The translations under genes and the position numbers were made by a program. The notes beneath the pieces were generated by a model. It worked only from the letters and a program-made list of their open reading frames with translations. It made no database searches and was not told the origin of the DNA. Shown piece by piece: positions 2,900 to 23,105 of a stretch of DNA of 33,978 nucleotides. This stretch comes from a virus: IMG/VR virus record IMGVR_UViG_3300029868_000015; one strand, written 5' to 3'. Position 1 is the stretch's first letter; every line of letters begins with the position of its first letter.

Positions 2900-2902
2900 T
2901 TG

Positions 2903-2931
2903 TTTACGAATAACATAATTTTAGCTAGTAT
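2903..2931 (+). promoter_or_regulatory. Candidate sigma70-like promoter upstream of the scaffold/capsid genes
   Basis: TTTACG (2903-2908), a 17-nt spacer, then TAGTAT (2926-2931), in an AT-rich 59-bp gap after the portal stop. Confidence 0.3.
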
Positions 2932-2958
2932 TAACTGTAATTTAGTTAAGGGCGAATA

Positions 2959-4343: not shown

Positions 4344-4355
4344 TGGAGAAATAAT

Positions 4356-5336: not shown

Positions 5337-5351
5337 GAAAGGAGAATAAAA

Positions 5352-5816: not shown

Positions 5817-5823
5817 TGAATTT

Positions 5824-5849
5824 GGGAGAGGGGCTTCGGCCCTTCTCTC
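5824..5849 (+). terminator. Stem-loop with a UUCG tetraloop after the capsid/decoration genes (attenuator or terminator-like, weak U tract)
   Basis: gggagaggggc ttcg gcccttctctc gives an 11-bp stem including 2 G-U pairs. It is followed by tcctc rather than a clean T run. Confidence 0.5.
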
Positions 5850-5873
5850 TCCTCAACAACAAAGGGCGAAACC

Positions 5874-6500: not shown

Positions 6501-7176
6501 AATCGGTAGTACCGAGGTTCCTTCAACTGTTGTAGGTAATGAGAACGAAACAGCAAAACAATCTTTAGCGCTTGCCAACCGGGCGCTAAGGGAGACCGCT
6601 AAACGTACTAAGTGGGAATTGCTGACCAGAACAGAGACTATCACAACGGTTGCCAGTCAAGCAGAGTATGACCTCCCCTCTGATTTCAAATCAATTCACA
6701 ATCAAACAATGTGGAACACCAGCCAGCGCAGGCCAACGCAGGCAGTGACGCCACAAGCATGGTCTTTCCTGCAAGCGTTCACTGACGTTAGCGGCATTAT
6801 CCTGCATTATAGAATTTTCCGTGATCCATCCGGAAACGGTCAAAAGGTGCAATTCTTTCCAACTCCAGGCGCAGGCCAAGTCATAACATACGAATATGTA
6901 TCTAATGGATTGGTGCAATCGGCTGCCGGAGTGTTGCAGGAAGAGTTCCTTGCGGATTCAGACACAGCATTGCTTGATGAAGACACAATTGCTTTAGGTT
7001 TAAAGTGGCGATTTGAATCGGCAAAAGGTTTCCCATATGCAGAATCTTTACAGGATTATGAGAAAGCCATTGCATATGATGTAGACGCAACACCTAGCCA
7101 AATCGTTAACATGGGCGGCGGGAATAGACGCTTGCGTACAGTGCTTATTGTTCCAGATTCGATAGTTGGCTCATGA
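6463..7176 (+). CDS. Head-to-tail adaptor (candidate, P22 gp4 position)
   Basis: 237 aa ORF that overlaps the previous gene by 38 nt. Call rests on synteny only. Confidence 0.4.
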   Translation: MTLLTIVKTALNEIGSTEVPSTVVGNENETAKQSLALANRALRETAKRTKWELLTRTETITTVASQAEYDLPSDFKSIHNQTMWNTSQRRPTQAVTPQAWSFLQAFTDVSGIILHYRIFRDPSGNGQKVQFFPTPGAGQVITYEYVSNGLVQSAAGVLQEEFLADSDTALLDEDTIALGLKWRFESAKGFPYAESLQDYEKAIAYDVDATPSQIVNMGGGNRRLRTVLIVPDSIVGS

Positions 7177-8771: not shown

Positions 8772-9505
8772 TGGCAGATTTTACAGGTAATTCAATCGCA
8801 GATACTTACAAACGAGTGTTGCAGATCGGCGTGGATAATACCGGCGTTTCTGCAACACTACAGGACGTAGAAGACGGCGCGGGCGCAACAACGGCTTTGC
8901 AGCTGTCAACTAAAGCAGTCGTTTTCCAAAACGGCGGCACAGCGGAAGAATATGCTAGATTTAATGACAACGGCAAGTTATTGATGAACAATCCGGTAGC
9001 GTTAACCACTGGGCAGGGTTTCTCGTCTTCCCTTCAGTTAAACGGCTTGAATGGTAGCGATGCTAGCTTGTCAATTGCGCGATCTTCTGACAATACAGGC
9101 GGCACATTCTTATCTGGAAATAAGTCTAGGGGTACATTAGCTGCTCCGACTATTGTAGTGGACGGCGATAATATATTCAACATCACCGCAGCAGTACACA
9201 ACGGTACAGATTTTGACAATCCAGCGGTCCAAATGCGCTTTGTTGTTGAAGGCACTGTAACGCCCGGCGCGTCTTCGCAACCAGGAATGTTAGAAATAAC
9301 CAATGGTAGCGTTACGTCAGCTAGGTTTCATGGTGACAGTTACTTCGAAGTGCTTTTAGGAATTGTTAACGCCGTGTTTACAAACGGCTCAAGGCCTTCG
9401 GCTTCTTCTGTACGTGCAGGCACTGAGATTTGGAACAGCGACGACAAGTTTTCTAATACTTCAGACGGTTCTGACTGGTATGATCCTGCGGGGAACATCA
9501 CCTAA
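8771..9505 (+). CDS. Tail needle / fibre-like protein (candidate)
   Basis: 244 aa with a TAATG overlap. G/S/T/N-rich and beta-type. The call is positional. Confidence 0.35.
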   Translation: MADFTGNSIADTYKRVLQIGVDNTGVSATLQDVEDGAGATTALQLSTKAVVFQNGGTAEEYARFNDNGKLLMNNPVALTTGQGFSSSLQLNGLNGSDASLSIARSSDNTGGTFLSGNKSRGTLAAPTIVVDGDNIFNITAAVHNGTDFDNPAVQMRFVVEGTVTPGASSQPGMLEITNGSVTSARFHGDSYFEVLLGIVNAVFTNGSRPSASSVRAGTEIWNSDDKFSNTSDGSDWYDPAGNIT

Positions 9506-9918
9506 TGCCTGATATTGCCATAGGATATGACGAGCAAGTTCGGGATTGGGTTTCTAATGAGCTTGGCCTTGAAAAGATAGGCGGCGATATGTTTGCGGCT
9601 ATTGGCATTGCTGAAGACGGTGAGCTAATAGGCGGCGCTGTGTTTCATGATTACCGAGAACACATGATTGAAATGAGCTTTGCGTCAACGTCTCCTACGT
9701 GGTGTTCTAAGAAGATACTAAAGGCTATATTTGATTATCCTTTTAATCAGCTTGGCGTTACTCGGATAAACGCAGTTTGCGCTAAAGGTAATAAGAAGAT
9801 GCGGCTAACAGTTAAACGAATTGGGTTCAAACAAGAAGGCTGCGCCCGCAAAGGGTATGACGGAAAGCAAGACGCTGTATTGTACGGCATGCTAAATAAA
9901 GATTGTAACTGGAATTAG
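9505..9918 (+). CDS. GNAT-fold N-acetyltransferase-like protein (RimJ/RimL-like pattern)
   Basis: 137 aa. The stretch ...LKAIFDYPFNQLGVTRINAVCAKGNKKMRLTVKRIGFKQEGCARKGY...DAVLYGML matches the recalled Acetyltransf_3 core pattern (yaF..lgl.Ri.a.v...N..s.rl.ek.GF..EG..R). Confidence 0.55.
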   Translation: MPDIAIGYDEQVRDWVSNELGLEKIGGDMFAAIGIAEDGELIGGAVFHDYREHMIEMSFASTSPTWCSKKILKAIFDYPFNQLGVTRINAVCAKGNKKMRLTVKRIGFKQEGCARKGYDGKQDAVLYGMLNKDCNWN

Positions 9919-11169: not shown

Positions 11170-12338
11170 TGGCTTTTCAAGGCGGTGGGTTAAACCCATT
11201 ACTACAAGCTTTGCAGCAGCGGCAACAAGTACAGGGTGGGCAAGTTCCGCAACCGCCTGTTATCCAAACGGGGCCGGATCGTAGTCAGTTGGTCGCGCAG
11301 TTATTGCAGCAGCAACAAGCGCAGCAGCCTAGAAACATTGGTTCTATTGGCGAAGGTCTAGCTAGATTGGGTTCTAGGCTTGTTGATACAGCAGCAGGCA
11401 AGAGCCGCATTGATAAACAGGTATCAGCGCAGGAGACACAGCAGCAAGCAATAGCTCAAGCCCTTCAGGGTGCGTTCGCTGGTGATGAAGGTGCATTAGG
11501 CCAGGTCGCACAGTTTAACCCGCAGTTAGCGGCGCAATTGAAGGCACAACAGCTAGCGCAAAAGGCCAGGAGTGATGCCGCACAGGCCACACCAGCATCG
11601 CAGGCTGCCTTTAAAGCCCTAACCGCCGGCCTATCAGAAGAAGAAGTAACCGAGGCTCAGAAAATTAGGCTTGGCTTATCCCCTAGAGCTGTAGGCGCTG
11701 CCGCTAAAACCTTCGATATTGGCGGGGTTCCTCACGTATTCGATCCGGTAACGCAGGAAGTAGTGCCTGTAGAAGTCGGGGGTGCTGACATAACATCTAA
11801 AGAGGTTGGAGTATCTAGGGCCGAAATAGCCGAGGCTAAAAAGCGCGGTGAAGGTAAAGGAACGCTTGCAGGAAAGACTATAGATAAAGGGTTTACTGCA
11901 ATCGGGAAAATAAGAGCCAACCTATTTAACATTGATCGGGCTATTGCCGCACTAGACAAAGGCGCTGACACCGGAGCTGTATCTAGGTTCCTACCAAGCG
12001 TAAGGGCTTCGACTGTTGAGCTTAACCAAATACAAAATGAACTAGCTCTTGATGTTGTTGGCGCGACCACCTTTGGTGCGCTAAGTGCTGGGGAACTTGC
12101 GCTAGCGAGAGAAACGGCGCTCCCTACCGGATTATCACCCGCTGCTTTGAAAGAGTTCCTTGTTAACAAGAAGACGGCACAAACAAAGCTATCTAATTAC
12201 TTCCAGCAGCAAATAGAGTTTTTAGAGGATGGCGGAACAGTGGTAGAGTTCTTGCGGCAACAGGGAGGAGGGGCTGAAGCTCCTACAGACCTTTCGCAGC
12301 TTACAGATGAAGAATTATTGAAGAGATTGAACCAGTAA
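11169..12338 (+). CDS. Internal virion / ejection protein (candidate)
   Basis: 389 aa, Q/A-rich, with a TAATG overlap. It sits at the position of the P22 ejection proteins. Confidence 0.4.
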   Translation: MAFQGGGLNPLLQALQQRQQVQGGQVPQPPVIQTGPDRSQLVAQLLQQQQAQQPRNIGSIGEGLARLGSRLVDTAAGKSRIDKQVSAQETQQQAIAQALQGAFAGDEGALGQVAQFNPQLAAQLKAQQLAQKARSDAAQATPASQAAFKALTAGLSEEEVTEAQKIRLGLSPRAVGAAAKTFDIGGVPHVFDPVTQEVVPVEVGGADITSKEVGVSRAEIAEAKKRGEGKGTLAGKTIDKGFTAIGKIRANLFNIDRAIAALDKGADTGAVSRFLPSVRASTVELNQIQNELALDVVGATTFGALSAGELALARETALPTGLSPAALKEFLVNKKTAQTKLSNYFQQQIEFLEDGGTVVEFLRQQGGGAEAPTDLSQLTDEELLKRLNQ

Positions 12339-14149
12339 TGGCAGATCAAAAAGACATACTTGAGGCGCTGCGCCGGGGATTGATAACGGAAGCGGAGGCA
12401 AAGCGAAGGCTTGCAGGCCCGCAACCTGATATTGAAGCGCCCGCCGAAGCATTAACGCAGCCGGGAGAACCTGCGCCACAGCTTCGGCAGCGCAAGGGAG
12501 CTTTTGAAGCTGCGGGCCAAGAGGTCAGAAAGTTTGTAGGTGAAGAATTTGGTCTTGACCCTGAAAACGCTAGAGCTGTAACTAGCTTTCTTCGGAGAGG
12601 CAATTTACCTGCTGGCCTAGATACAATTGCGCAAGCTTTATTAAATACAGGTGTACAAGCTGGTGAACTTATCGGCGGGGCAACTATAGGCGGCGCTAGT
12701 CTATTGGGTGATGTTTTAGGTTCCGTAATACCCGGCGCTACACCGGAACAAGGGCGGCGTGAGGCTCTTGCTTTCACTGAAACAGCGTTTCCCCCTTCCC
12801 GTGCAGCAGCTATCCCAAGAATCGCAGCCCGTACAGCACGAAGAGCGCCAGAGCTAGCACAAGCTAGGCGCGGTCAAGAGATTGTTGAAGCTGGTGAACA
12901 GGCCGGCGTTCCGGTTCTTACTACTGATATTCGCCAGCCACAAACTGCAATTGGTAAGATCGCACGCTCTACCGCTGAAAAGGTTCCTTTCGGTGCAGGC
13001 ACAGGACCAGCAAGGGCAGCACAGCAAGAAGCACGCGTAACTGCAACTGAAGACATTCTTCGGGAGTTTGGAGCAACCGCAGACGCACCGCTAGAAGCTC
13101 GTATAATCGAAGGTCTTTCACAAACACAGAAAGCCAGCCAAGCCAGAGCCGCAACAATACGCACGCAAGCTGTTGATAGCTTAAACCAGTTTGGTGATGT
13201 TCCTACAAAGAGCGCAACCAGCGAAATTGCACAGCAAATTGCACGGGAAGAAGGCCTAGGGACACTAGCAAGGCAAGACCTTTTGCAAAGGCTACGTTCT
13301 GTTGATGGCGCTTTAGGTGGTGACTTTGAACTATTAACCCGTGTTCGTAGTGAGGTTATCAGCGACATAGAACAACTATCCAGAGGCCAGCACTCAGTTT
13401 TAATTCAGCGTGACGCTTCAGCACTGCGGAAAGTCAAAGCGGCAATTGACAAGGACTTGCAGACATTCGCTAAAGCAAACGATCCAGAAGCAGCGGCTAA
13501 GTTCACTAAATCCAATGAGTTGTTTGCAGAAGAGTTTAGTAAGTTCAAGCGCAGCGAATTGCGTAACGTTCTTTCTAGGGGTGAAACCACACCTGAAGTG
13601 GCGGCTCAAGTTCTTAGAGGCGGCAAGACAAGCGAGCTAGAACGTTTAGCTAGTAATGCCGGGCAAGAAGGACGCGCAGCAGCAAGGGCGGCTATTATTC
13701 GGGATGCAGTAAATAAAGCTGGCGGGTTTATTAATTTAAATCCTGACAGAATTACTAACGAGTTCCTGAAGCCAAACACACAGAAAGCTATTAAGGCCTT
13801 CTTTAAAGGTGACGACAGGAAGAGGTTAGACGGCTTTGTTAAGCTCCTTGATGCCACTAGAGAAGCACAAAGGGCTGCAACTACCACACCTACAGGTCAA
13901 CAGTTAATCCCGTTTGCAACAGGCGGTGCGGCCATTGTAGACCCACTATCAACATTTATCGGGGTTGCAGGCATTGGCGGAGCTGGCAGAGCATACGAGA
14001 GCAAAGCCTTTAGAGACTTCTTATTGCGGGCAGCTAATACACCTAAAGACACACGGCAGTTTAACGAGCTAGCGGCAAACTTTGCGGCAGCATTAAACGA
14101 TGCAGTTACAGCAACGCAGCTAGCACAATCAGCAGGGGCGGAACAATGA
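12338..14149 (+). CDS. Internal virion / ejection protein (candidate, largest)
   Basis: 603 aa, A/R/E-rich and helical-looking, with a TAATG overlap. It is the last large gene before the membrane/spanin genes, as with P22 gp16. Confidence 0.4.
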   Translation: MADQKDILEALRRGLITEAEAKRRLAGPQPDIEAPAEALTQPGEPAPQLRQRKGAFEAAGQEVRKFVGEEFGLDPENARAVTSFLRRGNLPAGLDTIAQALLNTGVQAGELIGGATIGGASLLGDVLGSVIPGATPEQGRREALAFTETAFPPSRAAAIPRIAARTARRAPELAQARRGQEIVEAGEQAGVPVLTTDIRQPQTAIGKIARSTAEKVPFGAGTGPARAAQQEARVTATEDILREFGATADAPLEARIIEGLSQTQKASQARAATIRTQAVDSLNQFGDVPTKSATSEIAQQIAREEGLGTLARQDLLQRLRSVDGALGGDFELLTRVRSEVISDIEQLSRGQHSVLIQRDASALRKVKAAIDKDLQTFAKANDPEAAAKFTKSNELFAEEFSKFKRSELRNVLSRGETTPEVAAQVLRGGKTSELERLASNAGQEGRAAARAAIIRDAVNKAGGFINLNPDRITNEFLKPNTQKAIKAFFKGDDRKRLDGFVKLLDATREAQRAATTTPTGQQLIPFATGGAAIVDPLSTFIGVAGIGGAGRAYESKAFRDFLLRAANTPKDTRQFNELAANFAAALNDAVTATQLAQSAGAEQ

Positions 14150-16257: not shown

Positions 16258-16456
16258 CTTATTTTCGGCTCTACTTGCAGACCTTAACGAAAACGCCGCA
16301 GCATACGGGTTAATAATTTCATTATGCATAGGGTTGATTGGTGTTATAATCCACGCCATACGAGGTGAAATCAACACAAGAGTAACAAAGAGAAACGCCC
16401 TGCTTACCAGAAAAGAACAGGCTCGGCACAATAGGGCGATTGAAGAAGCTAATTAG
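16247..16456 (+). CDS. Small membrane protein with a charged C-terminus
   Basis: Starts at ATG 16247 (alternative GTG 16205). Contains the TM segment YGLIISLCIGLIGVIIHAI and then a basic tail. It is the last gene of the rightward block. Confidence 0.5.
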   Translation: MTGSLFSALLADLNENAAAYGLIISLCIGLIGVIIHAIRGEINTRVTKRNALLTRKEQARHNRAIEEAN

Positions 16457-16769
16457 ATTCCTCCCAGGCATTCACAGCCCACGCCACCAAATCAATATCA
16501 TACATCTTCCTGAAGGCCTCTTCACCTCCGAGTAAATGCACGCCGTAACGACCCATATGGTGTTCAATATGACAAAGAGGAACCACAAACCTGTGATCCC
16601 TCCTTCTAGCTTTACCCTTCATATGCATAATATGGTGTGGAACAGCCTCCCTACCGCACACTAGGCATCCATAAGACAAAACCCGGTCAATGTGTGCCTG
16701 CTCTACCTTGTTGGGGTCTGCTGCCCCTTTAGGCTTAATGCGTTTGTGTTTGGGAGCTTTTGGCCGCAT
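16449..16769 (-). CDS. HNH-type nuclease, DUF968 / phage P1 Ref-like (candidate)
   Basis: Internal ATG 16769 follows the SD AAGGAG (the track start 17027 overlaps the upstream gene). The sequence CLVCGREAVPHHIMHMKGKARRRDHRFVVPLCHIEHHMGRYGVH fits the recalled pattern CxxC...HH...PLC..HH. Confidence 0.55.
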   Translation of the reverse strand: MRPKAPKHKRIKPKGAADPNKVEQAHIDRVLSYGCLVCGREAVPHHIMHMKGKARRRDHRFVVPLCHIEHHMGRYGVHLLGGEEAFRKMYDIDLVAWAVNAWEESN

Positions 16770-16776
16770 AGTCTTT

Positions 16777-17079
16777 CTAACTCCTTGCAATACTGCCCTC
16801 AAGATCCAGACCTTCAGCTTTTGATAGAGCGGCTTCAGTGTGAATATGTGAAGACCTGTATTGGCGTTTGTGGTTCCACTTTGCCAGCCTAAGGAATATA
16901 CCTGTTGTCTTCTCAATTCGTGCGAGTAAACAAGCGGTGACTTCCTTTTCACGCTTGGCAGTCTTAGCGCCCCATTCCTTGTCTCGTTCGGTTTGTGCGT
17001 GCTGTACAGCCTTAAGTGTGCGGTCAAACTCGCCGTCTTTTGTATATCCGCCCAGCAGTTTAATTAAAAAGTCTCTCAT
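16777..17079 (-). CDS. Hypothetical protein (100 aa)
   Basis: ORF preceded by a 38-nt gap. No motif recognised. Confidence 0.5.
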   Translation of the reverse strand: MRDFLIKLLGGYTKDGEFDRTLKAVQHAQTERDKEWGAKTAKREKEVTACLLARIEKTTGIFLRLAKWNHKRQYRSSHIHTEAALSKAEGLDLEGSIARS

Positions 17080-17451: not shown

Positions 17452-17646
17452 CTAGCTCTCATCTTTTGGGGGTTTGTTGGCTAAATAGAACTCGGCGATT
17501 GCGTTGTAGAGCGCATTGCCAGTCTTGTCTCGATAACCACCATCAAAGCTCACCCCAAAACATTCAGTCAGAGAGTCAAATAACTCGTGACAACACTGCT
17601 CAATGTATTCGCTTTCCGGTCCTGTCAATTTATCCCTAGCTTCCAT
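17452..17646 (-). CDS. Hypothetical protein (64 aa)
   Basis: ATG 17646 follows the SD AAGGAT and overlaps the upstream gene by 11 nt. The C-terminus is ...LANKPPKDES. Confidence 0.5.
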   Translation of the reverse strand: MEARDKLTGPESEYIEQCCHELFDSLTECFGVSFDGGYRDKTGNALYNAIAEFYLANKPPKDES

Positions 17647-17974
17647 TGTCTGTATCCTTCGGGCGTTTGTTGTCAAAACTAGGGAAAAAATTAGCAGGAT
17701 CGGCATAGTAAGCGTGACTGCACATAATCACGTTTCTAAAACCATCGTCGCCGGTGAACATTGCCAGTATTGGATGAAAGCCACCATCAACCAAAATAAG
17801 CCACGGATTACCACTAGGCGCGTATTCGCTCTTAGGCCATGTCTTAACGTCCTCAGGGTCAAGCGTATCCCAAGCCGCATCAATACCAGCGCGCAGCATC
17901 GGCGCGGCTATGGGGGAAACGAATTCCTTTGCGGCTTCATCCTCGGCGGCAAGTTTCATTTTTTCGCTAATCAT
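17636..17974 (-). CDS. Hypothetical protein (112 aa)
   Basis: ATGA overlap with the upstream gene. The C-terminus is ...FDNKRPKDTDNGS. Confidence 0.55.
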   Translation of the reverse strand: MISEKMKLAAEDEAAKEFVSPIAAPMLRAGIDAAWDTLDPEDVKTWPKSEYAPSGNPWLILVDGGFHPILAMFTGDDGFRNVIMCSHAYYADPANFFPSFDNKRPKDTDNGS

Positions 17975-18198
17975 TTGATGCTCCCATCATTTGGGGGTTT
18001 GTTGGCAACTAGTTTGATGTGGCTTTTTCGTGCTGGATCGTTGTTAGTAACCTCAAAATCTCCATGTTGGATAAGCAAAGAAATATGCTCTTTCGCATCA
18101 CCTTCTTGCTCGAACTGCATAGCGTCATCACTGATAATGTGATCTTCATCCGATCCTAAAAATAGGCCAGTCGGCTTATGTTTGATTACGTACGTCAT
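17971..18198 (-). CDS. Hypothetical protein (75 aa)
   Basis: ORF with the C-terminus ...VANKPPNDGSIK. Confidence 0.55.
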   Translation of the reverse strand: MTYVIKHKPTGLFLGSDEDHIISDDAMQFEQEGDAKEHISLLIQHGDFEVTNNDPARKSHIKLVANKPPNDGSIK

Positions 18199-18210
18199 GT
18201 TATTTATCCG

Positions 18211-18366
18211 TTACTTTCTCGGCCTTAAAAAATACTCGTCAATGAAATGGACACCCCAAAGCAAAACGAAACTTGCATCAGCACGCTTGCCTCGGCTCTC
18301 TGTCTTGCGAACCAACCAAAACCCCACAAGAAGATATATTGCTATTGTGATGGCTATGATTTCCAT
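18211..18366 (-). CDS. Small membrane protein (51 aa, MEIIAITIAIYLLVGFWLV...)
   Basis: Hand-translated because it is below the track size cutoff. ATG 18366 is in an ATGA overlap with the upstream stop. One clear TM segment. Confidence 0.45.
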   Translation of the reverse strand: MEIIAITIAIYLLVGFWLVRKTESRGKRADASFVLLWGVHFIDEYFLRPRK

Positions 18367-18782
18367 CACGTCTCTCCCTCGACAGGTGATAGGGGTGAGT
18401 TGGCAGGATTTCCAAAGGCGGCTTGTGCGGCCTCAGTAACGGGCGTCATAGCTTCGCCATAACCCCAAACATCACCGCGCCAGTCTTTAAAGTTTCTGAA
18501 ATAATTTAAATTCACCGGCTTACCCTTTCGAATGTAGTCGGTGAACATTTTGACAATACTTTGAAGCGTTCCGCCGTTGGTGAAACCCTTATGCCAATTG
18601 TTCATGCCTGTTAGATAAATTGCCTTATTGGTATATTCATCACGCCATCTAAGATGGCCATCAAACCCAAGGAAAAAATGACCGTAGCGATCAAACTTTT
18701 TGCTGTAGAAAAACCGGCGACCATTATCGGCCATGACACGTATGAAGGTGTTCACCTGCTTTATGCGATCCGCTTTATTCAT
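18366..18782 (-). CDS. Hypothetical protein (138 aa)
   Basis: ATGA overlap with the upstream gene. Aromatic-rich sequence with no family recognised. Confidence 0.55.
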   Translation of the reverse strand: MNKADRIKQVNTFIRVMADNGRRFFYSKKFDRYGHFFLGFDGHLRWRDEYTNKAIYLTGMNNWHKGFTNGGTLQSIVKMFTDYIRKGKPVNLNYFRNFKDWRGDVWGYGEAMTPVTEAAQAAFGNPANSPLSPVEGET

Positions 18783-19030
18783 TGCTCAGTCTCCAGGGGG
18801 CGTTTGTTGGCCGGACGGGCCATTGCCCAAGTGGACTTAACTTTAACCGCATGGCTATAACCAGCGAACAAATCATTTCCTGTTGTTCCAGGATACGCAG
18901 TGGTCGTTATGCCGTTAATATTTAATTCAGTATTCACCCCCAGCAGGGTTGCAACACGGCAAAGCTCGTCACAGCCCTCTCGTATAGAAGGCCCCGCAAC
19001 ATTGTCTAACTTGAGTGTAAGGATGCCCAT
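18779..19030 (-). CDS. Hypothetical protein (83 aa)
   Basis: First gene downstream of the inverted cassette, with a candidate promoter of its own. The C-terminus is ...PANKRPLETEQ. Confidence 0.55.
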   Translation of the reverse strand: MGILTLKLDNVAGPSIREGCDELCRVATLLGVNTELNINGITTTAYPGTTGNDLFAGYSHAVKVKSTWAMARPANKRPLETEQ

Positions 19031-19048
19031 TGCTTTATCTTTCCTTTA

Positions 19049-19057
19049 TGATACAAT
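19049..19057 (+). promoter_or_regulatory. Candidate extended -10 promoter for the recombinase-like gene
   Basis: TGATACAAT (TGn plus TACAAT) lies about 50 nt upstream of the TTG start at 19107. Confidence 0.3.
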
Positions 19058-19077
19058 TCTTGTTACCAATTACATTT

Positions 19078-19105
19078 ACTGTACTAGATATGTAGGAGTT
19101 GTCAA
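19078..19105 (-). promoter_or_regulatory. Candidate sigma70-like promoter reading leftward into 18779..19030
   Basis: On the minus strand: TTGACA (19105-19100), a 16-nt spacer, then TACAGT (19083-19078). Confidence 0.4.
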
Positions 19106-19106
19106 G

Positions 19107-19649
19107 TTGAATTCAAGATTTAAAATAGGTTTTATTCAGGTTCTTAATTATGGCCCATCTGCCGATCAACAGGAACAAATGCTTGTTGGTGCTGGCGTGC
19201 TGAAGGACAACATATTCAGATCAAAGCCTGATACTATTCTTGATGCAATCAACGCCTGCCGTTTAGGTGACAAAAACATTCTTGTCGTAGCCTTTGAGCG
19301 TATCCTTGGTAAGCTTACAGGCGAGGTATTCAAACAGTTGGATGAACGGGGCGCAGACCTTTACTGTGTGGCTAGCGATACCCTGTACCCTGGCGCTAAT
19401 GGTGCGACGTTCTGCGAGTTCCTTAAGCAAAAGCAAAAGGGGCAGACTGCCAAGGCACGTTCTATGCGTGGTGATAGAAAAGGCGGCGCTCCCGTTAAGG
19501 TCACTGCTACCGACCTGCTGCGCGCTGAGAAGCTTATTCATCAAGGCTGGTCTATGCGCGAAGTCACTGACGAACTTGGCGTGGCTCCTAACTACCTCTA
19601 TCGCAAAGGGATTACGCTTGAGAGTGTCACGGCCAAGTACGACAACTGA
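19107..19649 (+). CDS. Serine-recombinase (resolvase/invertase)-like protein lacking the catalytic serine, with a C-terminal HTH; probable DNA-binding regulator
   Basis: TTG start lies 8 nt after AGGAG. IGFIQVLNYGPSADQQEQMLVGAGV..NIF...GDKNILVVAFERILGK aligns by eye with the resolvase pattern GYxRVSTxxQ....L...G.....if.D...GD.LvV..lDRLgR, but RVS is replaced by QVL. The C-terminal WSMREVTDELGVAPNYLYRK is HTH_7-like. Confidence 0.6.
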   Translation: MNSRFKIGFIQVLNYGPSADQQEQMLVGAGVLKDNIFRSKPDTILDAINACRLGDKNILVVAFERILGKLTGEVFKQLDERGADLYCVASDTLYPGANGATFCEFLKQKQKGQTAKARSMRGDRKGGAPVKVTATDLLRAEKLIHQGWSMREVTDELGVAPNYLYRKGITLESVTAKYDN

Positions 19650-19660
19650 TGACTGTTTGC

Positions 19661-19891
19661 TCATGTTCCATGCTCCATATATTGCAAATAAACATCTAAA
19701 GCCGCGAGCATTGGCCATTTAACATTGGTGCCCATAAAGCCCATGTTTTGGTAATGAGTGTCCATCCCAATCAGTGCCCGAGTTTCTCTTTCGGTCATAT
19801 CAAACTGTTCTGAGAGTTTTTCAACATCGTGTCCCTTGCAGAGTTCGTCTACCCATTCCACGATAGATGTATTATCAACTGTAGACTTCAT
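19661..19891 (-). CDS. Hypothetical protein (76 aa)
   Basis: ATGA overlap with the upstream gene. N-terminus MKSTVD. Confidence 0.55.
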   Translation of the reverse strand: MKSTVDNTSIVEWVDELCKGHDVEKLSEQFDMTERETRALIGMDTHYQNMGFMGTNVKWPMLAALDVYLQYMEHGT

Positions 19892-20082
19892 ATCATTACC
19901 TCAATCTTTACAGGCACAAATTTCAGACGCTTAAATAGTTCGTATTCACCACATATTGTATCGTGAAAATTAAGCTCGGCTTCTTCCTCATTCGATCCAA
20001 TGGCGTTGATGTAATAAACATCTTCAACAGGATCATAGGGGATTACACCCTTGAATTTCTTGTCAACTGATGACTGTTTCAT
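19888..20082 (-). CDS. Hypothetical protein (64 aa)
   Basis: ATGA overlap with the upstream gene. N-terminus MKQSSVD. Confidence 0.55.
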   Translation of the reverse strand: MKQSSVDKKFKGVIPYDPVEDVYYINAIGSNEEEAELNFHDTICGEYELFKRLKFVPVKIEVMI

Positions 20083-20318
20083 TCGATCACTCCTTCAGCC
20101 TTCAGCACAAGTTCAAGCATATGCTCAATAACCTTGCTTGCTTCAGGGCTTCTCTCTGCCGCTTTTTGAATGATTGCTTGATAGCGCCCGCAAATCATCG
20201 CGGTTGCCATACCAGAAGTGGCTGAGTGCCTATATTCGTAGCTTTCGAGCATTGCCATAAGCTCGACCACGCGAGGCAATCTATTGATGACAACTGAGGA
20301 CCTAGTAGAACTCGACAT
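20079..20318 (-). CDS. Hypothetical protein (about 79 aa)
   Basis: ATG 20318 (or 20321) follows the SD GGAGG. The track start 20441 lies inside the upstream gene. N-terminus MSSSTRSSVV. Confidence 0.5.
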   Translation of the reverse strand: MSSSTRSSVVINRLPRVVELMAMLESYEYRHSATSGMATAMICGRYQAIIQKAAERSPEASKVIEHMLELVLKAEGVIE

Positions 20319-20604
20319 CATTAACCTCCGGTTTCTGCGGCTTTGATAATTTAGGGCCCGGTGGGTTTGGCGGAAGCATCCAGTGCGTAGGCAGCAGGAA
20401 CGGGCCAAGCCATGTAGCCGTTGTCGGCGTCCATGCTTCATCCAAGGAATCCCACCCGCCAGTAGTCATGAATGGCTCTTTGAAAAGAACCCCTTCAAAT
20501 TCCTGTGAGAATTCGGGTTTGCAATACATCAGAATATGCGTCCCATCTTTGGGCGCTGTTTCCATTGGCTGCCATGTGCTATCTGATGACTTTGAATTGC
20601 TCAT
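20302..20604 (-). CDS. DUF551-like protein
   Basis: ATG 20604 is in an ATGA overlap. WQPMETAPKDGTHILMY resembles the recalled DUF551 N-terminal motif (W.p....P.dG..vL). Confidence 0.5.
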   Translation of the reverse strand: MSNSKSSDSTWQPMETAPKDGTHILMYCKPEFSQEFEGVLFKEPFMTTGGWDSLDEAWTPTTATWLGPFLLPTHWMLPPNPPGPKLSKPQKPEVNDVEFY

Positions 20605-20891
20605 AGTGACAACCTCACTTTTTGAAACGGGATAATACCAACTATCTCTTCGTCGGGAAAAACAGGCTCCTTTGACCACTCAACTTTAAAGTTGAAATAC
20701 ATGCGGCCATCCCCACTGAATTTATAGTTTCCGGGGTTAGGAATATGGACGTGCGGCAGTGCATCAACCAGATTTTGAGCCTGCCCTTTAGTGATCCTAC
20801 ATTTGCGCGCTAATTCAGAAAGCCATATGGGACCACTGCCTTTTACAATGCGGGTTAGCTTTTCGCCCATGTCAACTGAGGACTGTTTCAT
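20601..20891 (-). CDS. Hypothetical protein with a winged-helix-like segment
   Basis: N-terminus MKQSSVD. LSELARKCRITKGQAQNLVDAL looks like an HTH. Confidence 0.5.
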   Translation of the reverse strand: MKQSSVDMGEKLTRIVKGSGPIWLSELARKCRITKGQAQNLVDALPHVHIPNPGNYKFSGDGRMYFNFKVEWSKEPVFPDEEIVGIIPFQKVRLSL

Positions 20892-21109
20892 AAATCTAAC
20901 CCTTCCAAAATCTTGCGCTTCGAAACCTCCAACATGAAAACCGCTGATGAGTTATCCATATGACTGCTGGTGATTGCTAATGCGCCGTCCTTGTCATAGC
21001 TAATTATCAGAACATCTTTCATGCCTTCACGTCCGACCTTTTCAAGTGCTTGTTCAACCGTCATTTTATCATGATTGTTTAACTCGCTGACAACTGATGA
21101 CTTAGACAT
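20888..21109 (-). CDS. Hypothetical protein (73 aa)
   Basis: ATG 21109 (MSKSSVV...) overlaps the peptidase stop by 8 nt. The track start 21127 is less likely. Confidence 0.5.
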   Translation of the reverse strand: MSKSSVVSELNNHDKMTVEQALEKVGREGMKDVLIISYDKDGALAITSSHMDNSSAVFMLEVSKRKILEGLDL

Positions 21110-21545
21110 GTGGCAACCCCTTCGCATAAAGATTGTGCGTCTTAGTTAAAACCTCGTTCCGGTTCTTCTCTGAGATGCTGCAATGTATCCAGGCTTTCCC
21201 GAGCTGACGCTGTTCGAGTATGAGCTGGTCAAACTCAACATTGTCTCTAATCCAGCGCGCTAGATTTACAATGTCAATTCCTGGCACGGTGAAGTCAACA
21301 GCTTGGCCTAGCATGTGCTGGCTTTTCGGTGAGCCTCCTATAGCCGAGTTAAGCGCCTCACATCTAAACCCGCTACTAGGCGTTATCGGTACACCGTAAT
21401 GCTCTCTGACGGGCTGTAAAATCTCGTTACATACGCGCTCAAGGTATTCTTCTGCCTTCTTGTCAGGCGTGTTGTCTATGCCTTCACGTTCCGCTGTATC
21501 GCTGCGGGTCATTTCTGCAAGGGTAAAGTTTTTGCTCAGTTCCAT
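21102..21545 (-). CDS. Peptidase M15 family (VanY / L-alanyl-D-glutamate peptidase-like) cell-wall hydrolase; endolysin candidate
   Basis: FTLAEMTRS...SGFRCEALNSAIGGSPKSQHMLGQAVDF...WIHCS matches the recalled Peptidase_M15_3 zinc-site pattern (SGyR...N...GG...SqH..G.AvD...H). Confidence 0.8.
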   Translation of the reverse strand: MELSKNFTLAEMTRSDTAEREGIDNTPDKKAEEYLERVCNEILQPVREHYGVPITPSSGFRCEALNSAIGGSPKSQHMLGQAVDFTVPGIDIVNLARWIRDNVEFDQLILEQRQLGKAWIHCSISEKNRNEVLTKTHNLYAKGLPHV

Positions 21546-21745
21546 TGTTTAAGCCTTTCGAATGCTTCCAGAACGTCCGACCACTTAGCAGGGCCGGGTA
21601 ATACCTTACCATGTCGCCACATTGACCAACTGGTTGTTGAAACGTTAGCGTCACCTAGAAACTGTTCTAGCGTTACATCTCGAATTTTCATCTCTGCTTC
21701 AATAGCGTGCGTTTTCCGCACTATCTTCTCAACGGTTATAATCAA
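21536..21745 (-). CDS. Cro/XRE-like HTH regulator, first gene of the leftward block
   Basis: TTG start lies 7 nt after AAGGAG. VTLEQFLGDANVSTTSWSMWRHGK fits the XRE-type HTH pattern. Confidence 0.55.
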   Translation of the reverse strand: MIITVEKIVRKTHAIEAEMKIRDVTLEQFLGDANVSTTSWSMWRHGKVLPGPAKWSDVLEAFERLKQWN

Positions 21746-21763
21746 TTGTTCTCTCCTTATGCC

Positions 21764-21794
21764 TCTTTATACGCTGTACATATATATACGTCAA
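21764..21794 (-). promoter_or_regulatory. Candidate leftward early promoter
   Basis: On the minus strand: TTGACG (21794-21789), a 19-nt spacer, then TATAAA (21769-21764). The spacer is longer than the optimum. Confidence 0.35.
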
Positions 21795-21847
21795 GTTTAT
21801 TTAAATAAAGCTGATGCCTATTGACTTCTTTATATAAGTACATATAT
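21774..21847. promoter_or_regulatory. Two exact 10-bp direct repeats, GTACATATAT (21774-21783 and 21838-21847); operator candidates
   Basis: Read directly. The copies are 64 bp apart start to start, one inside each divergent promoter candidate. Confidence 0.45.
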
Positions 21848-21848
21848 T
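21821..21848 (+). promoter_or_regulatory. Candidate rightward early promoter
   Basis: TTGACT (21821-21826), a 16-nt spacer, then TATATT (21843-21848). The SD AAGGAGAGAGA lies downstream, before ATG 21872. Confidence 0.55.
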
Positions 21849-21871
21849 AAGTAGTAACAAGGAGAGAGAAA

Positions 21872-22141
21872 ATGCAGCAGCAAGAATCAATCATCATCGA
21901 AGAATACCCGGTAACAATATTCGGGTGTGAAATGCTCATCACTATAGAAGCCTTCGGATCTTTCGAGTCTGTAGGATTATGCGAGAGCTACAACGGCGGC
22001 GGCGTTGCACGCCTTTATGAGGATTACGAGCTTAGCTGGGTTGATGTACAATCGCCTGAAGTTGGAACCATGAAGTTCGACGCAATGCCTAAAGAGCTGC
22101 AAGACAAGATTAAGCGTATGCTGGAAAGGGAGCGAGAATGA
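21872..22141 (+). CDS. Hypothetical acidic protein (89 aa), first rightward gene
   Basis: Strong SD. By my count D+E is roughly twice K+R. Confidence 0.6.
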   Translation: MQQQESIIIEEYPVTIFGCEMLITIEAFGSFESVGLCESYNGGGVARLYEDYELSWVDVQSPEVGTMKFDAMPKELQDKIKRMLERERE

Positions 22142-22299
22142 CCGAGCTAGAAAGATTTAAGCACGACATTGACCAGCAGATAATTGCGCTGGAGGGTTAT
22201 CTTTTAGGCAAAGGCCAAACCCAGGCGGTGCGGGAACTGATGTTTCAGAAGCAGCGATTTGACCAAATTATGAACGAACAAATAAAGGGCGAGATATGA
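22138..22299 (+). CDS. Small hypothetical protein (53 aa)
   Basis: Hand-translated as MTELERFKHDIDQQIIALEGYLLGKGQ.... ATGA overlaps are present at both ends. Confidence 0.45.
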   Translation: MTELERFKHDIDQQIIALEGYLLGKGQTQAVRELMFQKQRFDQIMNEQIKGEI

Positions 22300-23105
22300 G
22301 CGAATTAAATATACACCAGCGGATTGCAGCAGTTATGCAGGCTATCGCATACGTGCAAAAAGAGAATAAAAAGGTCAACAATCAGTACACGTTTGTTAGC
22401 CATGACGCCGTTACAGCGGCAGTGAGAACGCACCTTATTGATAACGGTATCGTTGTTATCCCCACGGTGACAAAGCATATACAGGACGGCAACAGGACCG
22501 AGGTAGATTTAAACATCGACTTCGTGAACATTGATAAACCTGAAGACAAGATTTCAGTGCAGATGTTCGGCTATGGTGTTGACCAACAAGACAAGGGGCC
22601 GGGCAAGGCTTTCTCATACGCAAAGAAATACGCCTTCCTGCAATTGTTCCTCTTGGAAACTGGCGACGATCCAGAGCGTGACAACATTGACCACAGGAAA
22701 ACATCGCGCACGAAAACAGCGGTTCACAAGGATATGAAAGCCGCAGCGTTTAAGATGACACAGACCGCAACCATTGAAGCGTTTGAAAGCTTCTTGGCTG
22801 GTGACGGGTTCCAAAAGCTGATTAAAGAGTTACGCAGTGAATGGCCTGAAGAATTTCAAGGCTTGCGTGAAGAGAAGGACAAGCACAAGAAACGCCTTGA
22901 GGCTGGCCCAAAGCTCACCAGTGAAGATATACAGCTCTATATAGAGAAGTTCACTAAAGACCTTAGCTCTGAATTTGATGCTGGAATGTGCGCGGAAATG
23001 TTTAAGATAGCCAAGAACGACCTGTTAAAAGCTGCCGCAACTGGCGAGCAAATCCATGAGGTCGAGGTTGCTTATGATGAACACATACAGCGCTTAGGTG
23101 ATTAA
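22296..23105 (+). CDS. erf: ERF-family single-strand annealing recombinase
   Basis: The N-terminal 130 aa (IHQRIAAVMQAIAYVQKENKKVNNQYTFVSHDAVTAAVRTHLIDNGI...GPGKAFSYAKKYAFLQLFLLETGDDPE) match the recalled ERF domain pattern. Confidence 0.75.
   Translation: MSELNIHQRIAAVMQAIAYVQKENKKVNNQYTFVSHDAVTAAVRTHLIDNGIVVIPTVTKHIQDGNRTEVDLNIDFVNIDKPEDKISVQMFGYGVDQQDKGPGKAFSYAKKYAFLQLFLLETGDDPERDNIDHRKTSRTKTAVHKDMKAAAFKMTQTATIEAFESFLAGDGFQKLIKELRSEWPEEFQGLREEKDKHKKRLEAGPKLTSEDIQLYIEKFTKDLSSEFDAGMCAEMFKIAKNDLLKAAATGEQIHEVEVAYDEHIQRLGD

What the first reader, a model, noticed from the sequence alone, without database searches (positions are those of the whole stretch)
19641..21109. The same 13-21 nt element sits at the first codons of seven consecutive, otherwise unrelated leftward early genes
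Minus-strand sense sequences, each starting at the gene's ATG:
- 21109-21089: ATGTCTAAGTCATCAGTTGTC
- 20891-20871: ATGAAACAGTCCTCAGTTGAC
- 20604-20581: ATGAGCAATTCAAAGTCATCAGAT
- 20318-20289: ATGTCGAGTTCTACTAGGTCCTCAGTTGTC
- 20082-20062: ATGAAACAGTCATCAGTTGAC
- 19891-19874: ATGAAGTCTACAGTTGAT
- 19664-19641: ATGAGCAAACAGTCATCAGTTGTC

The core is GTC(A/C)TCAGTTG(A/T)C, encoding M-(S)K-(Q)-S-S-V-(D/V). The rest of each protein shows no similarity to the others. Four of the copies (20891, 20604, 20082, 19891) begin in an ATGA stop/start overlap with a called upstream gene, and so does the orphan copy at 19664. The starts at 21109 and 20318 overlap the upstream gene by 8 and 17 nt.

Conservation at the nucleotide level across unrelated genes points to a function of the sequence itself. 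Possibilities are:
- a recombination linker that lets gene cassettes be swapped;
- a shared translational operator for a RegA-like repressor, or a re-initiation element;
- a common N-terminal peptide tag.

I do not recognise this as a described element.
Basis: seen in the sequence. Interest (0 to 1): 0.78.

Follow-up and report, generated by a model that had tools for sequence, protein, structure and literature searches.

The report
In-frame junction repeat of phage cassettes
A 16-base sequence sits in the first codons of every gene in a fast-changing block of small early genes in a handful of marine P22-like phages, and related phages stop being alike exactly at it, so it most likely acts as the seam where gene cassettes are swapped.

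Summary
Seven same-strand, same-frame copies of RGTCMTCAGWTGACA lie 3-15 nt after consecutive start codons at 21109-19641. Nothing comparable occurs elsewhere in the 34-kb genome.

The window is a nearly complete uncultured P22-like phage genome. Five mosaic relatives were found, three of them without using the motif. All carry the motif at gene starts in the equivalent early-gene array, yet about 27 cassettes are almost all unrelated.

Conservation is at nucleotide level: Val is always GTT and the second Ser always TCA, while non-synonymous changes are as common as synonymous ones.

Homology between phages breaks at the element:
- the M15 peptidase gene (85% identity) ends inside copy 1;
- cassette 6 (about 90% identity to a sixth phage) is bounded by junction elements on both sides, with unrelated neighbours.

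Gene-less copies exist. A terminal copy abuts the stop codon of a convergent, apparently inactive serine-recombinase-like gene in all five phages where that junction is held.

No promoter, RNA structure, Rfam family or 16S complementarity explains it.

Best reading (about 0.55): a recombination junction ("linker") of a hyperplastic cassette array. A cis-acting binding site, a site-specific enzyme target and a peptide tag are not excluded. I class it as a new variant of a known kind.

The parts
21088..21109 (-). Junction copy 1: ATGTCTAAGTCATCAGTTGTCA, start of a 73-aa cassette. Overlaps the end of the M15 peptidase gene by 8 nt.
   Evidence: 23.2 bits. Homology to L089 (84.7% over 580 nt) ends at 21099, inside this copy.
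20870..20891 (-). Junction copy 2: ATGAAACAGTCCTCAGTTGACA, start of a 96-aa cassette. ATGA overlap with the upstream gene.
   Evidence: 23.2 bits.
20577..20604 (-). Junction copy 3 (degenerate): ATGAGCAATTCAAAGTCATCAGATAGCA, start of a 100-aa cassette of the 'ETAPKDGT' family.
   Evidence: 18.1 bits. Its homologue in L089 also carries the motif. A member of the same family in L094 (5045-5284), lying outside the array, lacks it.
20288..20318 (-). Junction copy 4: ATGTCGAGTTCTACTAGGTCCTCAGTTGTCA, start of a 79-aa cassette. The core lies 15 nt after the ATG.
   Evidence: 19.6 bits.
20061..20082 (-). Junction copy 5: ATGAAACAGTCATCAGTTGACA, start of a 64-aa cassette.
   Evidence: 24.4 bits.
19873..19891 (-). 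Junction copy 6 (degenerate): ATGAAGTCTACAGTTGATA, start of a 76-aa cassette.
   Evidence: 15.4 bits. About 90% nt identity to L195 begins at the last bases of this core and ends just before the next ATG.
19641..19664 (-). Terminal, gene-less junction copy: ATGAGCAAACAGTCATCAGTTGTC. The reverse complement of its core supplies ...GAC AAC TGA, the last codons and stop of the convergent gene. It opens a 133-codon antisense ORF.
   Evidence: (22.8 bits). The same 23-mer occurs in L094 (twice) and the corresponding start in L102. An equivalent ATG plus half-motif abuts the stop codon of the homologous gene in L094, L102, L103 and L104.
19661..21109 (-). Array of six unrelated small cassettes (73, 96, 100, 79, 64 and 76 aa), each translationally overlapped with its neighbour.
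   Evidence: All are singletons at 90% identity among about 15 billion proteins, except cassette 6.
19107..19649 (+). Convergent gene for a small serine-recombinase-like protein with a C-terminal helix-turn-helix. The catalytic serine and arginines are not conserved. It marks the distal end of the array in all relatives where that end is held.
   Evidence: A profile of 4 homologues hits Gin invertase at E=7e-5 over the full length. The 12 best Foldseek matches to the model are all serine recombinases. Alignment; position.
21102..21545 (-). Peptidase M15 gene immediately upstream of the first junction copy.
   Evidence: Pfam PF08291, E=1e-24. 80% aa identity to the L089 gene.
22296..23105 (+). 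Erf single-strand annealing protein, the candidate enzyme for exchange at short homologies. The relatives L089 and L094 carry RecT at this position.
   Evidence: Pfam PF04404, E=8e-19. RecT.
17455..18809 (-). Second, unrelated junction repeat in the next leftward gene block. CAACAAAC(C/G)CCC... encodes a shared C-terminal ...NK(P/R)P... tail just before the next gene's Shine-Dalgarno sequence. Copies lie at 17455-17481, 17648-17674, 17980-18006 and 18786-18809.
   Evidence: D2, D3, D6; 4 hits against 0.30 expected. The same kind of tail occurs in L094, L103 and L104.

Best explanation
The motif is the junction ('linker') sequence of a hyperplastic array of accessory-gene cassettes in the early-left region of a small group of marine P22-like phages.

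The genes overlap (ATGA), so there is no intergenic room. The junction is therefore carried in frame as a short, tolerated N-terminal extension (M-x-K/Q-S-S-V/D-D) on otherwise unrelated proteins.

Copies in the same orientation and frame give patches of identity: 16 nt in the core, and up to 23-25 nt within sub-families. Recombination between co-infecting phages, or between copies in one genome, can then replace, delete or insert whole genes without breaking reading frames or translational coupling. The likely enzyme is the phage's own single-strand annealing protein, Erf here and RecT in relatives. A gene-less terminal copy gives the last cassette its second flank.

Shown:
- the repeat, with its strand, frame and position;
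- its presence in every relative examined that holds this array;
- nucleotide-level rather than peptide-level conservation;
- almost complete turnover of cassettes;
- homology breakpoints at the element;
- gene-less copies.

Inferred:
- that recombination at the element produced these patterns;
- which enzyme acts;
- that this role, rather than another cis function, is why the element persists.
For: 1. Relatives.
- Five relatives carry the motif at gene starts in the same array, in the same strand and frame. Three of them (L102, L103, L195) were found through proteins, not through the motif.
- The motif occurs nowhere else in those loci.

2. Local conservation amid divergence.
- The flanking conserved gene is only 24-57% identical in protein between these phages.
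- A 23-nt stretch, CATGAGCAAACAGTCATCAGTTG, is identical in the window and L094. The start ATGAGCAAACAGTCATCAGTTG is also identical in L102.

3. Cassette turnover.
- About 27 cassettes in five arrays give only two homologous pairs (plus Pfam PF27050).
- The window's cassettes are singletons among 15 billion proteins.

4. Breakpoints.
- Window against L089: 84.7% identity over 580 nt stops at 21099, inside copy 1.
- Window cassette 6 against L195: about 90% identity runs only from the 3' end of its core to just before the next ATG. The neighbours on both sides are unrelated.

5. Gene-less copies.
- A terminal copy abuts the convergent gene's stop codon in all five phages where that junction is held.
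- L102 has a 10-codon mini-ORF made of the motif, followed by a gene with its own Shine-Dalgarno sequence.
- This parallels the single PeSL left where a cassette is absent (PMC2839356).

6. Nucleotide rather than peptide constraint.
- Val is GTT in 14 of 14 copies, against 44% genome usage. The second Ser is TCA in 16 of 16, against 23%.
- Departures from consensus are about 13 non-synonymous to 8 synonymous.
- Individual copies decay: window copies 3 and 6, and copies in L103.

7. One gene family occurs with the motif inside the array and without it outside.

8. A second, unrelated junction repeat marks gene 3' ends in the neighbouring array. Junction repeats are therefore a general habit of this phage group.

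9. Enzymes.
- Every long relative in which the recombinase region was annotated (window, L094, L089) encodes Erf or RecT.
- Published minimal efficient pairing for Red-beta is 23-27 bp (PMC3945230).
Against: - The invariant core is only 16 nt, below published minimal pairing lengths. Only sub-families reach 23-25 nt.
- No recombination event was observed directly. Any strongly conserved element would become a breakpoint whatever its primary function, so the breakpoints do not prove that exchange is what maintains it.
- In the window/L195 comparison the right-hand break lies about 20 nt 5' of the next core, not inside it.
- Two breaks sit exactly at the 3' edge of the core and join it to DNA that has no motif: the window terminal copy and the L102 mini-ORF. 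Simple homologous exchange does not predict this.
- The near-palindromic core has a chance probability of about 0.005 by my estimate. Genome-specific sub-variants also occur in L103 and L195. Both features are what a binding site that co-evolves with a factor would show.
- Only six genomes or fragments are known, and the host is unknown.
Confidence: 0.55

Rival explanations
1. The 16-mer is a cis-acting binding site for a phage or host factor, either protein or RNA. It could act on mRNA as a translational operator covering codons 2-7, or on DNA as a stoperator-like roadblock. It would co-regulate every gene of this operon. Recombination at it would then be a side effect of its conservation.
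For: - Fixed strand and position inside the translation initiation region of each gene.
- Sharp information-content profile with a few tolerated positions.
- Near-palindrome GTCATC-A-GWTGAC, perfect in the GAT variants.
- Genome-specific sub-variants in L103 and L195.
- Precedents of unknown or regulatory function: SAS/ESAS and stoperators (PMC3203893).
Against: - No copy in either promoter region, and none anywhere else in the genome.
- No shared RNA fold, and the hairpin is broken in most variants.
- No Rfam match.
- 16S complementarity is no better than for shuffled motifs.
- The motif does not co-vary with the helix-turn-helix of the neighbouring recombinase-like protein. L094 has a 24%-identical protein but an identical motif. 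L103 has a nearly identical recognition helix but a divergent motif.
- Decayed copies and gene-less copies are tolerated.
- A regulatory site does not explain the conserved terminal copy without a gene.
Confidence: 0.2
2. The 16-mer is the target of a dedicated enzyme, either a site-specific recombinase or a nuclease that makes a break there. The array would then be an integron-like cassette-capture system. The terminal copy next to the serine-recombinase-like gene would be the primary insertion site.
For: - All copies are direct repeats in a promoterless, co-oriented cassette array.
- The core is near-palindromic.
- Breaks lie exactly at the 3' edge of the core and join it to motif-less DNA.
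- A terminal copy abuts a serine-recombinase homologue in all five phages where that junction is held.
- HNH genes are present in these phages.
Against: - The recombinase homologue lacks the catalytic serine. Leu aligns with Gin S9 in all four aligned homologues, and in the window the next residue is Asn. The catalytic arginines are not conserved across the family.
- A 13-16 bp site is about half the size of known serine-recombinase crossover sites. This comparison rests on my own knowledge.
- The motif does not co-vary with that protein.
- No enzyme can be assigned.
Confidence: 0.1
3. The shared element matters as a peptide, an N-terminal tag M-x-K/Q-S-S-V-D. It would direct unrelated proteins to a common fate such as packaging into virions, export or degradation. 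The model is the capsid targeting sequence shared by the otherwise diverse T4 internal proteins.
For: - Always in frame and at the extreme N-terminus of unrelated small proteins.
Against: - The peptide is not conserved beyond what the nucleotides impose. SSVD, SSDD, SLDD, SFDD, SSVV, STVD, SSVG and SSDS all occur, with non-synonymous changes at least as common as synonymous ones.
- Codons are fixed: GTT in 14 of 14, TCA in 16 of 16.
- Spacing from Met-1 varies from 1 to 5 residues.
- Gene-less copies have nothing to tag.
- The genes lie in an early, non-structural operon.
Confidence: 0.08
4. There is no present function. The copies are relics of repeated duplication of one gene start, followed by replacement of the gene bodies.
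For: Copies decay, and individual cassettes seem not to need an intact motif.
Against: - Identity of 23 nt is kept across phages whose neighbouring conserved gene has diverged to 24-57% protein identity.
- The motif is present in all six genomes or fragments, and breakpoints coincide with it.
Confidence: 0.04

Closest known systems
Short conserved boundary ('linker') sequences at module junctions of lambdoid phages. This is the Susskind-Botstein modular theory and the HK620 analysis of Clark et al. 2001, cited as refs 21 and 22 in PMC3029335.
   Same: - A short conserved sequence at the junction of non-homologous modules in mosaic temperate-type phages.
- Proposed to guide homologous recombination.
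- The phages encode Rad52-like annealing proteins.
   Different: - Here the sequence is a multi-copy tandem series, one copy per gene, inside one operon.
- It lies in frame within the first codons rather than between genes.
- It has a terminal gene-less copy.
[quoted passage not shown]
PeSL (promoter-early stem-loop) cassettes of T4-type phages (Arbiol et al. 2010, PMC2839356).
   Same: - Repeated conserved elements flank ORFans in hyperplastic regions.
- Differences between related phages map to them.
- A single element remains where a cassette is missing.
   Different: - PeSLs are intergenic elements of about 100 bp made of a sigma-70 promoter and a terminator hairpin.
- This element is 16 nt and lies in coding sequence.
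- It has no promoter and no conserved hairpin.
Start-associated sequences (SAS/ESAS) of Cluster K mycobacteriophages (Pope et al. 2011, PMC3203893).
   Same: - A 13-bp-scale asymmetric repeat in one orientation.
- Tied to the start codons of non-structural genes from different families.
- Lineage-specific, with function unknown.
   Different: - SAS lies 3-7 bp upstream of the start and contains the Shine-Dalgarno core.
- This motif lies downstream of the ATG and is translated.
- The sequences are unrelated.
- Breakpoint evidence is available here.
Stoperators of Cluster A mycobacteriophages (L5 gp71 sites; mentioned in PMC3203893 and PMC3029335).
   Same: - Many copies of a 13-bp asymmetric site in one orientation relative to transcription.
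- Located at gene boundaries.
- Genome-group-specific variants.
   Different: - Stoperators share their sequence with the operator at the early promoter and are spread over the whole genome.
- Here there is no promoter copy, and the sites are confined to one array.
Integron cassette arrays (attI/attC with IntI).
   Same: - A co-oriented, promoterless array of unrelated cassettes, each with a recombination-site-like repeat.
- A terminal site next to a recombinase-family gene.
   Different: - No tyrosine recombinase.
- The neighbouring serine-recombinase homologue appears catalytically dead.
- The repeat is 16 nt at the 5' coding end, not a 57-141-nt folded attC at the 3' end.
Capsid targeting sequence of T4 internal proteins (PMC3012670).
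   Same: Diverse, probably host-interaction proteins that share only a short N-terminal sequence.
   Different: - The CTS is conserved as a peptide and is cleaved by the prohead protease.
- Here the peptide drifts while the codons are fixed, and the genes are early.

Membership tests
Phage module boundary / linker sequences | Short sequence conserved at the junction between otherwise non-homologous genes | tested here: met
   There are 7 copies in the window and 16-20 more in five relatives. The flanks fall to background information content.
Phage module boundary / linker sequences | Homology between related genomes begins or ends at the sequence | tested here: met
   The break between the window and L089 lies inside copy 1. 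Window cassette 6 and its L195 homologue are bounded by junction elements on both sides.
Phage module boundary / linker sequences | Recombination actually takes place at the sequence | not testable with these tools
   This needs split-read or PCR detection of junctions, or crosses.
PeSL regulatory cassettes (T4-type) | Strong sigma-70 early promoter within the element | tested here: not met
   No promoter-like site overlaps any copy. TTGACA occurs in the core but has no -10 partner.
PeSL regulatory cassettes (T4-type) | Stem-loop terminator within the element | tested here: not met
   Folds of 19 copies share no structure, and no terminator-like site lies at the copies.
PeSL regulatory cassettes (T4-type) | Flanks ORFans in hyperplastic regions, with a single element left where a cassette is absent | tested here: met
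   The cassettes are singletons, and gene-less copies exist.
Start-associated sequences (Cluster K) | Repeat lies 3-7 bp upstream of the start codon and contains the AGGAG core | tested here: not met
   The core begins 3-15 nt downstream of the ATG and has no Shine-Dalgarno sequence. Separate Shine-Dalgarno sequences lie upstream.
Start-associated sequences (Cluster K) | One orientation only, on non-structural genes of different families | tested here: met
   All copies are on the sense strand of the early-left array.
Stoperators (Cluster A) | The same site also serves as operator at the early promoter and is bound by the repressor | tested here: not met
   There is no copy in 21745-21872 or 19030-19107. 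Binding itself cannot be tested here.
Integron | IntI-type tyrosine recombinase next to the array | tested here: not met
   The adjacent gene has a serine-recombinase fold.
Integron | attC: imperfect inverted repeats that fold, placed at the 3' end of each cassette | tested here: not met
   The repeat is 16 nt at the 5' coding end, with no stable fold.
Active small serine recombinase (for the neighbouring gene) | Catalytic Ser (Gin S9) with Arg residues (R8, R68 and R71 in gamma-delta numbering) | tested here: not met
   In the aligned homologues (alignment A3) the position of Gin S9 is Leu. In the window the next residue is Asn. The R8 equivalent is Q, K, S or A. DRLGR is replaced by ERILGK or EQVLGR in the aligned homologues. 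In L094 the same stretch reads LGALGN.
Active small serine recombinase (for the neighbouring gene) | Resolvase/invertase fold with a C-terminal helix-turn-helix | tested here: met
   The profile hits Gin 3uj3 and 4m6f at E=7e-5 over the full length. The 12 best Foldseek hits are Sin, gamma-delta and Tn3 resolvases. The model is of moderate quality, pLDDT 69.
RegA-type translational operator | RNA site overlapping the initiation region of several early genes, bound by a phage translational repressor | tested here: inconclusive
   The position fits (codons 2-7). No repressor candidate was identified, and no RNA feature is detectable.
CTS-type N-terminal targeting peptide | Conservation at amino-acid level, with a processing site | tested here: not met
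   About 13 non-synonymous against 8 synonymous departures from consensus, with fixed codons.
Any Rfam RNA family | Match to a curated covariance model | tested here: not met
   No match in 18800-22000 at E up to 5, and none in the whole window at gathering scores.

The most novel reading that the evidence does not exclude
The array is a phage-borne cassette-capture system that works in frame. The near-palindromic 16-mer in the first codons would be cut or exchanged by a dedicated enzyme. That enzyme could be the neighbouring serine-recombinase-like protein, acting alone or with a partner, or a phage HNH nuclease. New gene bodies would be slotted behind a resident start codon, and the terminal gene-less copy next to the recombinase gene would serve as the insertion site.
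Probability: 0.1. Interest if true: 0.9.

Novelty: new variant of a known kind. Interest (0 to 1): 0.6.

Why it matters
The modular theory of phage evolution predicted short homologous linkers between exchangeable modules. Such linkers are rarely visible at real mosaic boundaries.

This is an unusually clean case:
- every junction of a fast-turning accessory-gene array carries the same in-frame 16-mer;
- the 16-mer is shared by phages that otherwise share almost no cassettes;
- breakpoints fall at it, and a terminal empty site is present;
- the neighbouring array uses a second, different linker at gene 3' ends.

If confirmed, it shows how phages can shuffle promoterless, translationally coupled genes without losing expression. 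The cassettes include an RtcB ligase and possibly other anti-defence functions.

It also gives a simple sequence handle for finding and delimiting such cassettes in metagenomes.

If instead a factor binds the site, it defines a new operon-wide control element.

Tried and rejected
**Searches for relatives**
- Megablast of the window against INPHARED phages: no match.
- Motif scan of JGI metagenome contigs: 84 single hits, all chance-like.
- Motif scan of GTDB genomes: 9 chance hits. A protein-based scan found none, so no host could be named.
- A second IMG/VR motif scan: 77 chance singles.
- More distant M15 peptidase homologues lie in unrelated siphovirus lysis modules and told nothing about the array.

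**Functional readings tested**
- Sigma-70 promoter reading of the embedded TTGACA: rejected, because there is no -10 partner.
- RNA hairpin or Shine-Dalgarno sequestration: rejected. The folds share nothing, and most variants break the stem.
- Downstream-box-like pairing to 16S rRNA, with E. coli as proxy: a 7-nt match, the same as for shuffled motifs.
- Hammerhead reading (the antisense strand contains CUGAUGA) and any other known RNA: no Rfam hit.
- The neighbouring recombinase-like helix-turn-helix protein as binder of the motif: disfavoured by the lack of co-variation.
- Pfam and PHROGs on the cassettes: nothing informative.


Full report
**1. What is in the window**

The window is essentially a whole uncultured phage genome.
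- It holds 33,978 of the 34,146 nt of a contig deposited as a 'Flavobacteriales' MAG.
- It has a P22-type portal, an Sf6-type small terminase, Erf, DUF1367 and DUF1064.
- It has no close relative in INPHARED.

A leftward operon starts near 21745. It runs through a small first gene, an M15 peptidase gene (21102-21545) and six small unrelated genes. It then meets the 3' end of a convergent plus-strand gene at 19107-19649.

**2.

| Test | Result |
|---|---|
| Consensus AGTCMTCAGTTGWC, up to 2 mismatches | 5 hits against 0.59 expected; 0 of 100 shuffles reach 5 |
| 15-nt weight matrix, at least 15 bits | the seven starts only; 0-1 in 30 shuffles |
| BLASTP among the six proteins | no hit at E<0.01 |

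- The conserved block is RGTCMTCAGWTGACA, 16 nt. Information content drops to background on both sides.
- It is always on the sense strand and always read as ..K/Q-S-S-V/D-D.
- It starts 3-15 nt after the ATG.
- The core is a near-palindrome (GTCATC-A-GWTGAC), perfect in the GAT variants.

**3. Relatives**

| Phage | Loci | How found |
|---|---|---|
| A (IMG/VR 3300029867_000009, also a 'Thalassobium' MAG contig) | L001, L094 | motif scan |
| B | L089 | through DUF1367 |
| C, D and a fragment | L102, L103, L104 | convergent protein |
| E | L195 | 90% cluster of cassette 6 |

- All are mosaic. DUF1367 is 85-90% identical among its close relatives, including A and B, whereas the convergent protein is 24-57% identical between the window and A, C, D and the L104 fragment.
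- Every one has the motif at consecutive gene starts in the equivalent array, in the same strand and frame.
- A has 4 copies and B has 4, plus one cut off by the contig end. C has 3 good copies and several decayed ones. D has 1 good copy and 4 decayed ones. E has 2 variant copies.
- No copies occur outside the arrays.
- Genes beyond the convergent gene never carry the motif.
- Larger scans of metagenomes, GTDB genomes and IMG/VR gave only chance singles. The element is confined to a small lineage, and the host remains unknown.

**4. The conservation is in the nucleotides**

In the window genome GTT makes up 44% of Val codons and TCA 23% of Ser codons.
- Across the 19 good copies, Val is GTT in 14 of 14 and the second Ser is TCA in 16 of 16.
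- Departures from the consensus are about 13 non-synonymous (GTT to GAT; TCA to TTA, TTT or ACA; GAC to GTC, GGC or AGC) against 8 synonymous.
- The peptide is therefore nearly neutral. This argues against a tag as the selected feature.

The stretch CATGAGCAAACAGTCATCAGTTG is identical over 23 nt between the window's terminal copy and two copies in A. The corresponding start in C is also identical. The adjacent conserved protein, by contrast, has diverged to 24-57% identity.

**5. Gene content turns over at the motif**

- About 27 cassettes in five arrays give only two homologous pairs (PF27050).
- The window's cassettes are singletons at 90% identity among about 15 billion proteins, except cassette 6.
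- Window and B are 84.7% identical over 580 nt of the M15 gene. The similarity stops at 21099, inside ATGTCTAAGTC| of copy 1, and unrelated genes follow.
- Cassette 6 and its homologue in E are about 90% identical from ...TTGAY|AATACATC, the last bases of the core, to ...TATATGGAGCATG, just before the next ATG.
- Their upstream neighbours are unrelated. Downstream, the window has the gene-less terminal copy, whereas E has a real gene with its own motif variant.
- An 'ETAPKDGT'-family gene carries the motif inside the array in the window and in B. It lacks the motif where it sits outside the array in A, and there it carries the other array's C-terminal tail instead.

**6. Gene-less copies**

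The 'orphan' at 19664 is followed by no gene. Its core, read on the other strand, supplies GAC AAC TGA, the end of the convergent gene.

The homologous junction in C, D, L104 and A shows the same architecture:
- ATGAAAAAGTCA|
- ATGACTGACCGGTCC|
- ATGAGTGATCGGTCA|
- ATGAAGAAACCA|

Each abuts the complement of the convergent gene's stop codon. The terminal copy is therefore a conserved feature, the distal boundary of the array, and not only a deletion scar.

C also has an internal 10-codon mini-ORF, ATGAAAAAGTCATCAGATGACACAGGAGGCAATTAG. It is followed by a gene that brings its own Shine-Dalgarno sequence.

**7. Rival functions tested**

| Reading | Result |
|---|---|
| Sigma-70 promoter at the copies | none, despite the embedded TTGACA |
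| Shared RNA fold | none among 19 copies |
| Complementarity to E. coli 16S rRNA | 7 nt, typical of shuffled motifs |
| Rfam family | none |
| Motif copy in either promoter region | none |

**8. The neighbouring gene**

- The convergent protein is a small serine-recombinase homologue. Its profile hits Gin invertase at E=7e-5 over the full length. The 12 best Foldseek hits are all resolvases or invertases, on a model with pLDDT 69.
- It lacks the catalytic serine and conserved arginines, so it is probably inactive as a recombinase.
- Its helix-turn-helix does not co-vary with the motif, so it is a poor candidate for a binder.

**9. Interpretation**

The pattern matches what is proposed for boundary sequences in lambdoid phages and for PeSLs in T4-type phages. 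In those cases conserved junction elements flank ORFans in hyperplastic regions, and exchanges map to them (PMC3029335; PMC2839356).
- The genes here overlap, so the junction has to lie in coding sequence. The same strand and frame in every copy is what keeps recombinants in frame.
- The terminal empty copy gives the last cassette a second flank.
- The window encodes Erf, and A and B encode RecT. Rad52-like annealing proteins act on short and diverged homologies, with a minimal efficient pairing of 23-27 bp for Red-beta (PMC3945230). That is about the length of the sub-family identities seen here.

I put this reading at about 0.55.

Points that do not fit simple homologous exchange:
- the 16-nt core is short;
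- some breaks sit exactly at the core's 3' edge and join it to motif-less DNA;
- the core is near-palindromic;
- D and E have genome-specific sub-variants.

These keep open a binding-site function (about 0.2) and a dedicated nuclease or recombinase (about 0.1). A peptide tag (about 0.08) and pure relic (about 0.04) are less likely.

**10. Context noticed**

- The next leftward block uses a different junction repeat at gene 3' ends. CAACAAAC(C/G)CCC encodes ...NK(P/R)P... tails just before the next Shine-Dalgarno sequence. It gives 4 hits against 0.30 expected, and it recurs in A, D and L104.
- Two arrays with two different in-frame junction sequences fit a structural, recombinational role better than a single regulatory one.

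**11. Verdict**

This is a real, lineage-specific, in-frame junction repeat. I class it as a new variant of a known kind of element. It is interesting as an unusually explicit example of the 'linker' long postulated for modular phage evolution. There remains a minority chance of something more novel.

Noticed in passing
window 17455-17481, 17648-17674, 17980-18006, 18786-18809 (minus strand); also L094 about 2900-5300, L103 about 5200-9700, L104 about 1380-2344: A second junction repeat lies at the 3' ends of unrelated small genes beyond the convergent gene. CAACAAAC(C/G)CCC... encodes shared ...NK(P/R)P...(D/E)(E/S)* tails, followed by the next gene's Shine-Dalgarno sequence. It gives 4 exact hits in the window against 0.30 expected.
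   Followed up: partly
window 19107-19649 (+): The convergent gene encodes a small serine-recombinase (Gin/resolvase-like) homologue with a helix-turn-helix. It lacks the catalytic Ser and Arg residues, and Pfam does not detect it. It is conserved at the end of the array in A, C, D and the L104 fragment. It might be a regulator or repressor.
   Followed up: partly
window 19263-19664 (-); L103, L104 and L094 equivalents: The terminal motif copy opens a codon-aligned antisense ORF through the recombinase-like gene: 133, 65, 193, 213 and 193 codons in five phages. The sense gene is depleted in TTA, CTA and TCA, the codons that would be antisense stops (5 seen against about 30 expected). This could be a translated read-through linking the two leftward blocks, or a real overlapping gene.
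   Followed up: partly
L102 11176-11230 (minus strand): A 10-codon mini-ORF consists of the motif alone (MKKSSDDTGGN*). It is followed by a gene with its own Shine-Dalgarno sequence. The same array also holds a full RtcB RNA ligase gene (11425-12657).
   Followed up: partly
whole window; L095: The window contig and relative A are deposited as bacterial MAG contigs ('Flavobacteriales bacterium', 'Thalassobium sp.'). Both are complete P22-like phage genomes and are probably mis-binned. No prophage copy was found in GTDB species representatives.
   Followed up: partly
L093 353-877 against L089: A variant of phage B from a sister sample carries an HNH_3 endonuclease gene inserted between the early promoter region and the M15 peptidase gene. 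The gene is absent from L089.
   Followed up: no
window 16449-17079 (-): The 192-aa ORF matches relative A in two pieces (64-72% identity), which suggests two genes or a frameshift. Its C-terminal part gives sub-threshold DUF968 and RecA-dependent-nuclease (Ref-like) hits.
   Followed up: partly
L102 3029-5164: The large terminase of relative C carries an intein (PF14890 together with Terminase_3).
   Followed up: no
L089 position 1 (contig end): The contig of relative B ends exactly within a further motif copy (ATGAATAAGTC). This is consistent with the repeat breaking the assembly.
   Followed up: no
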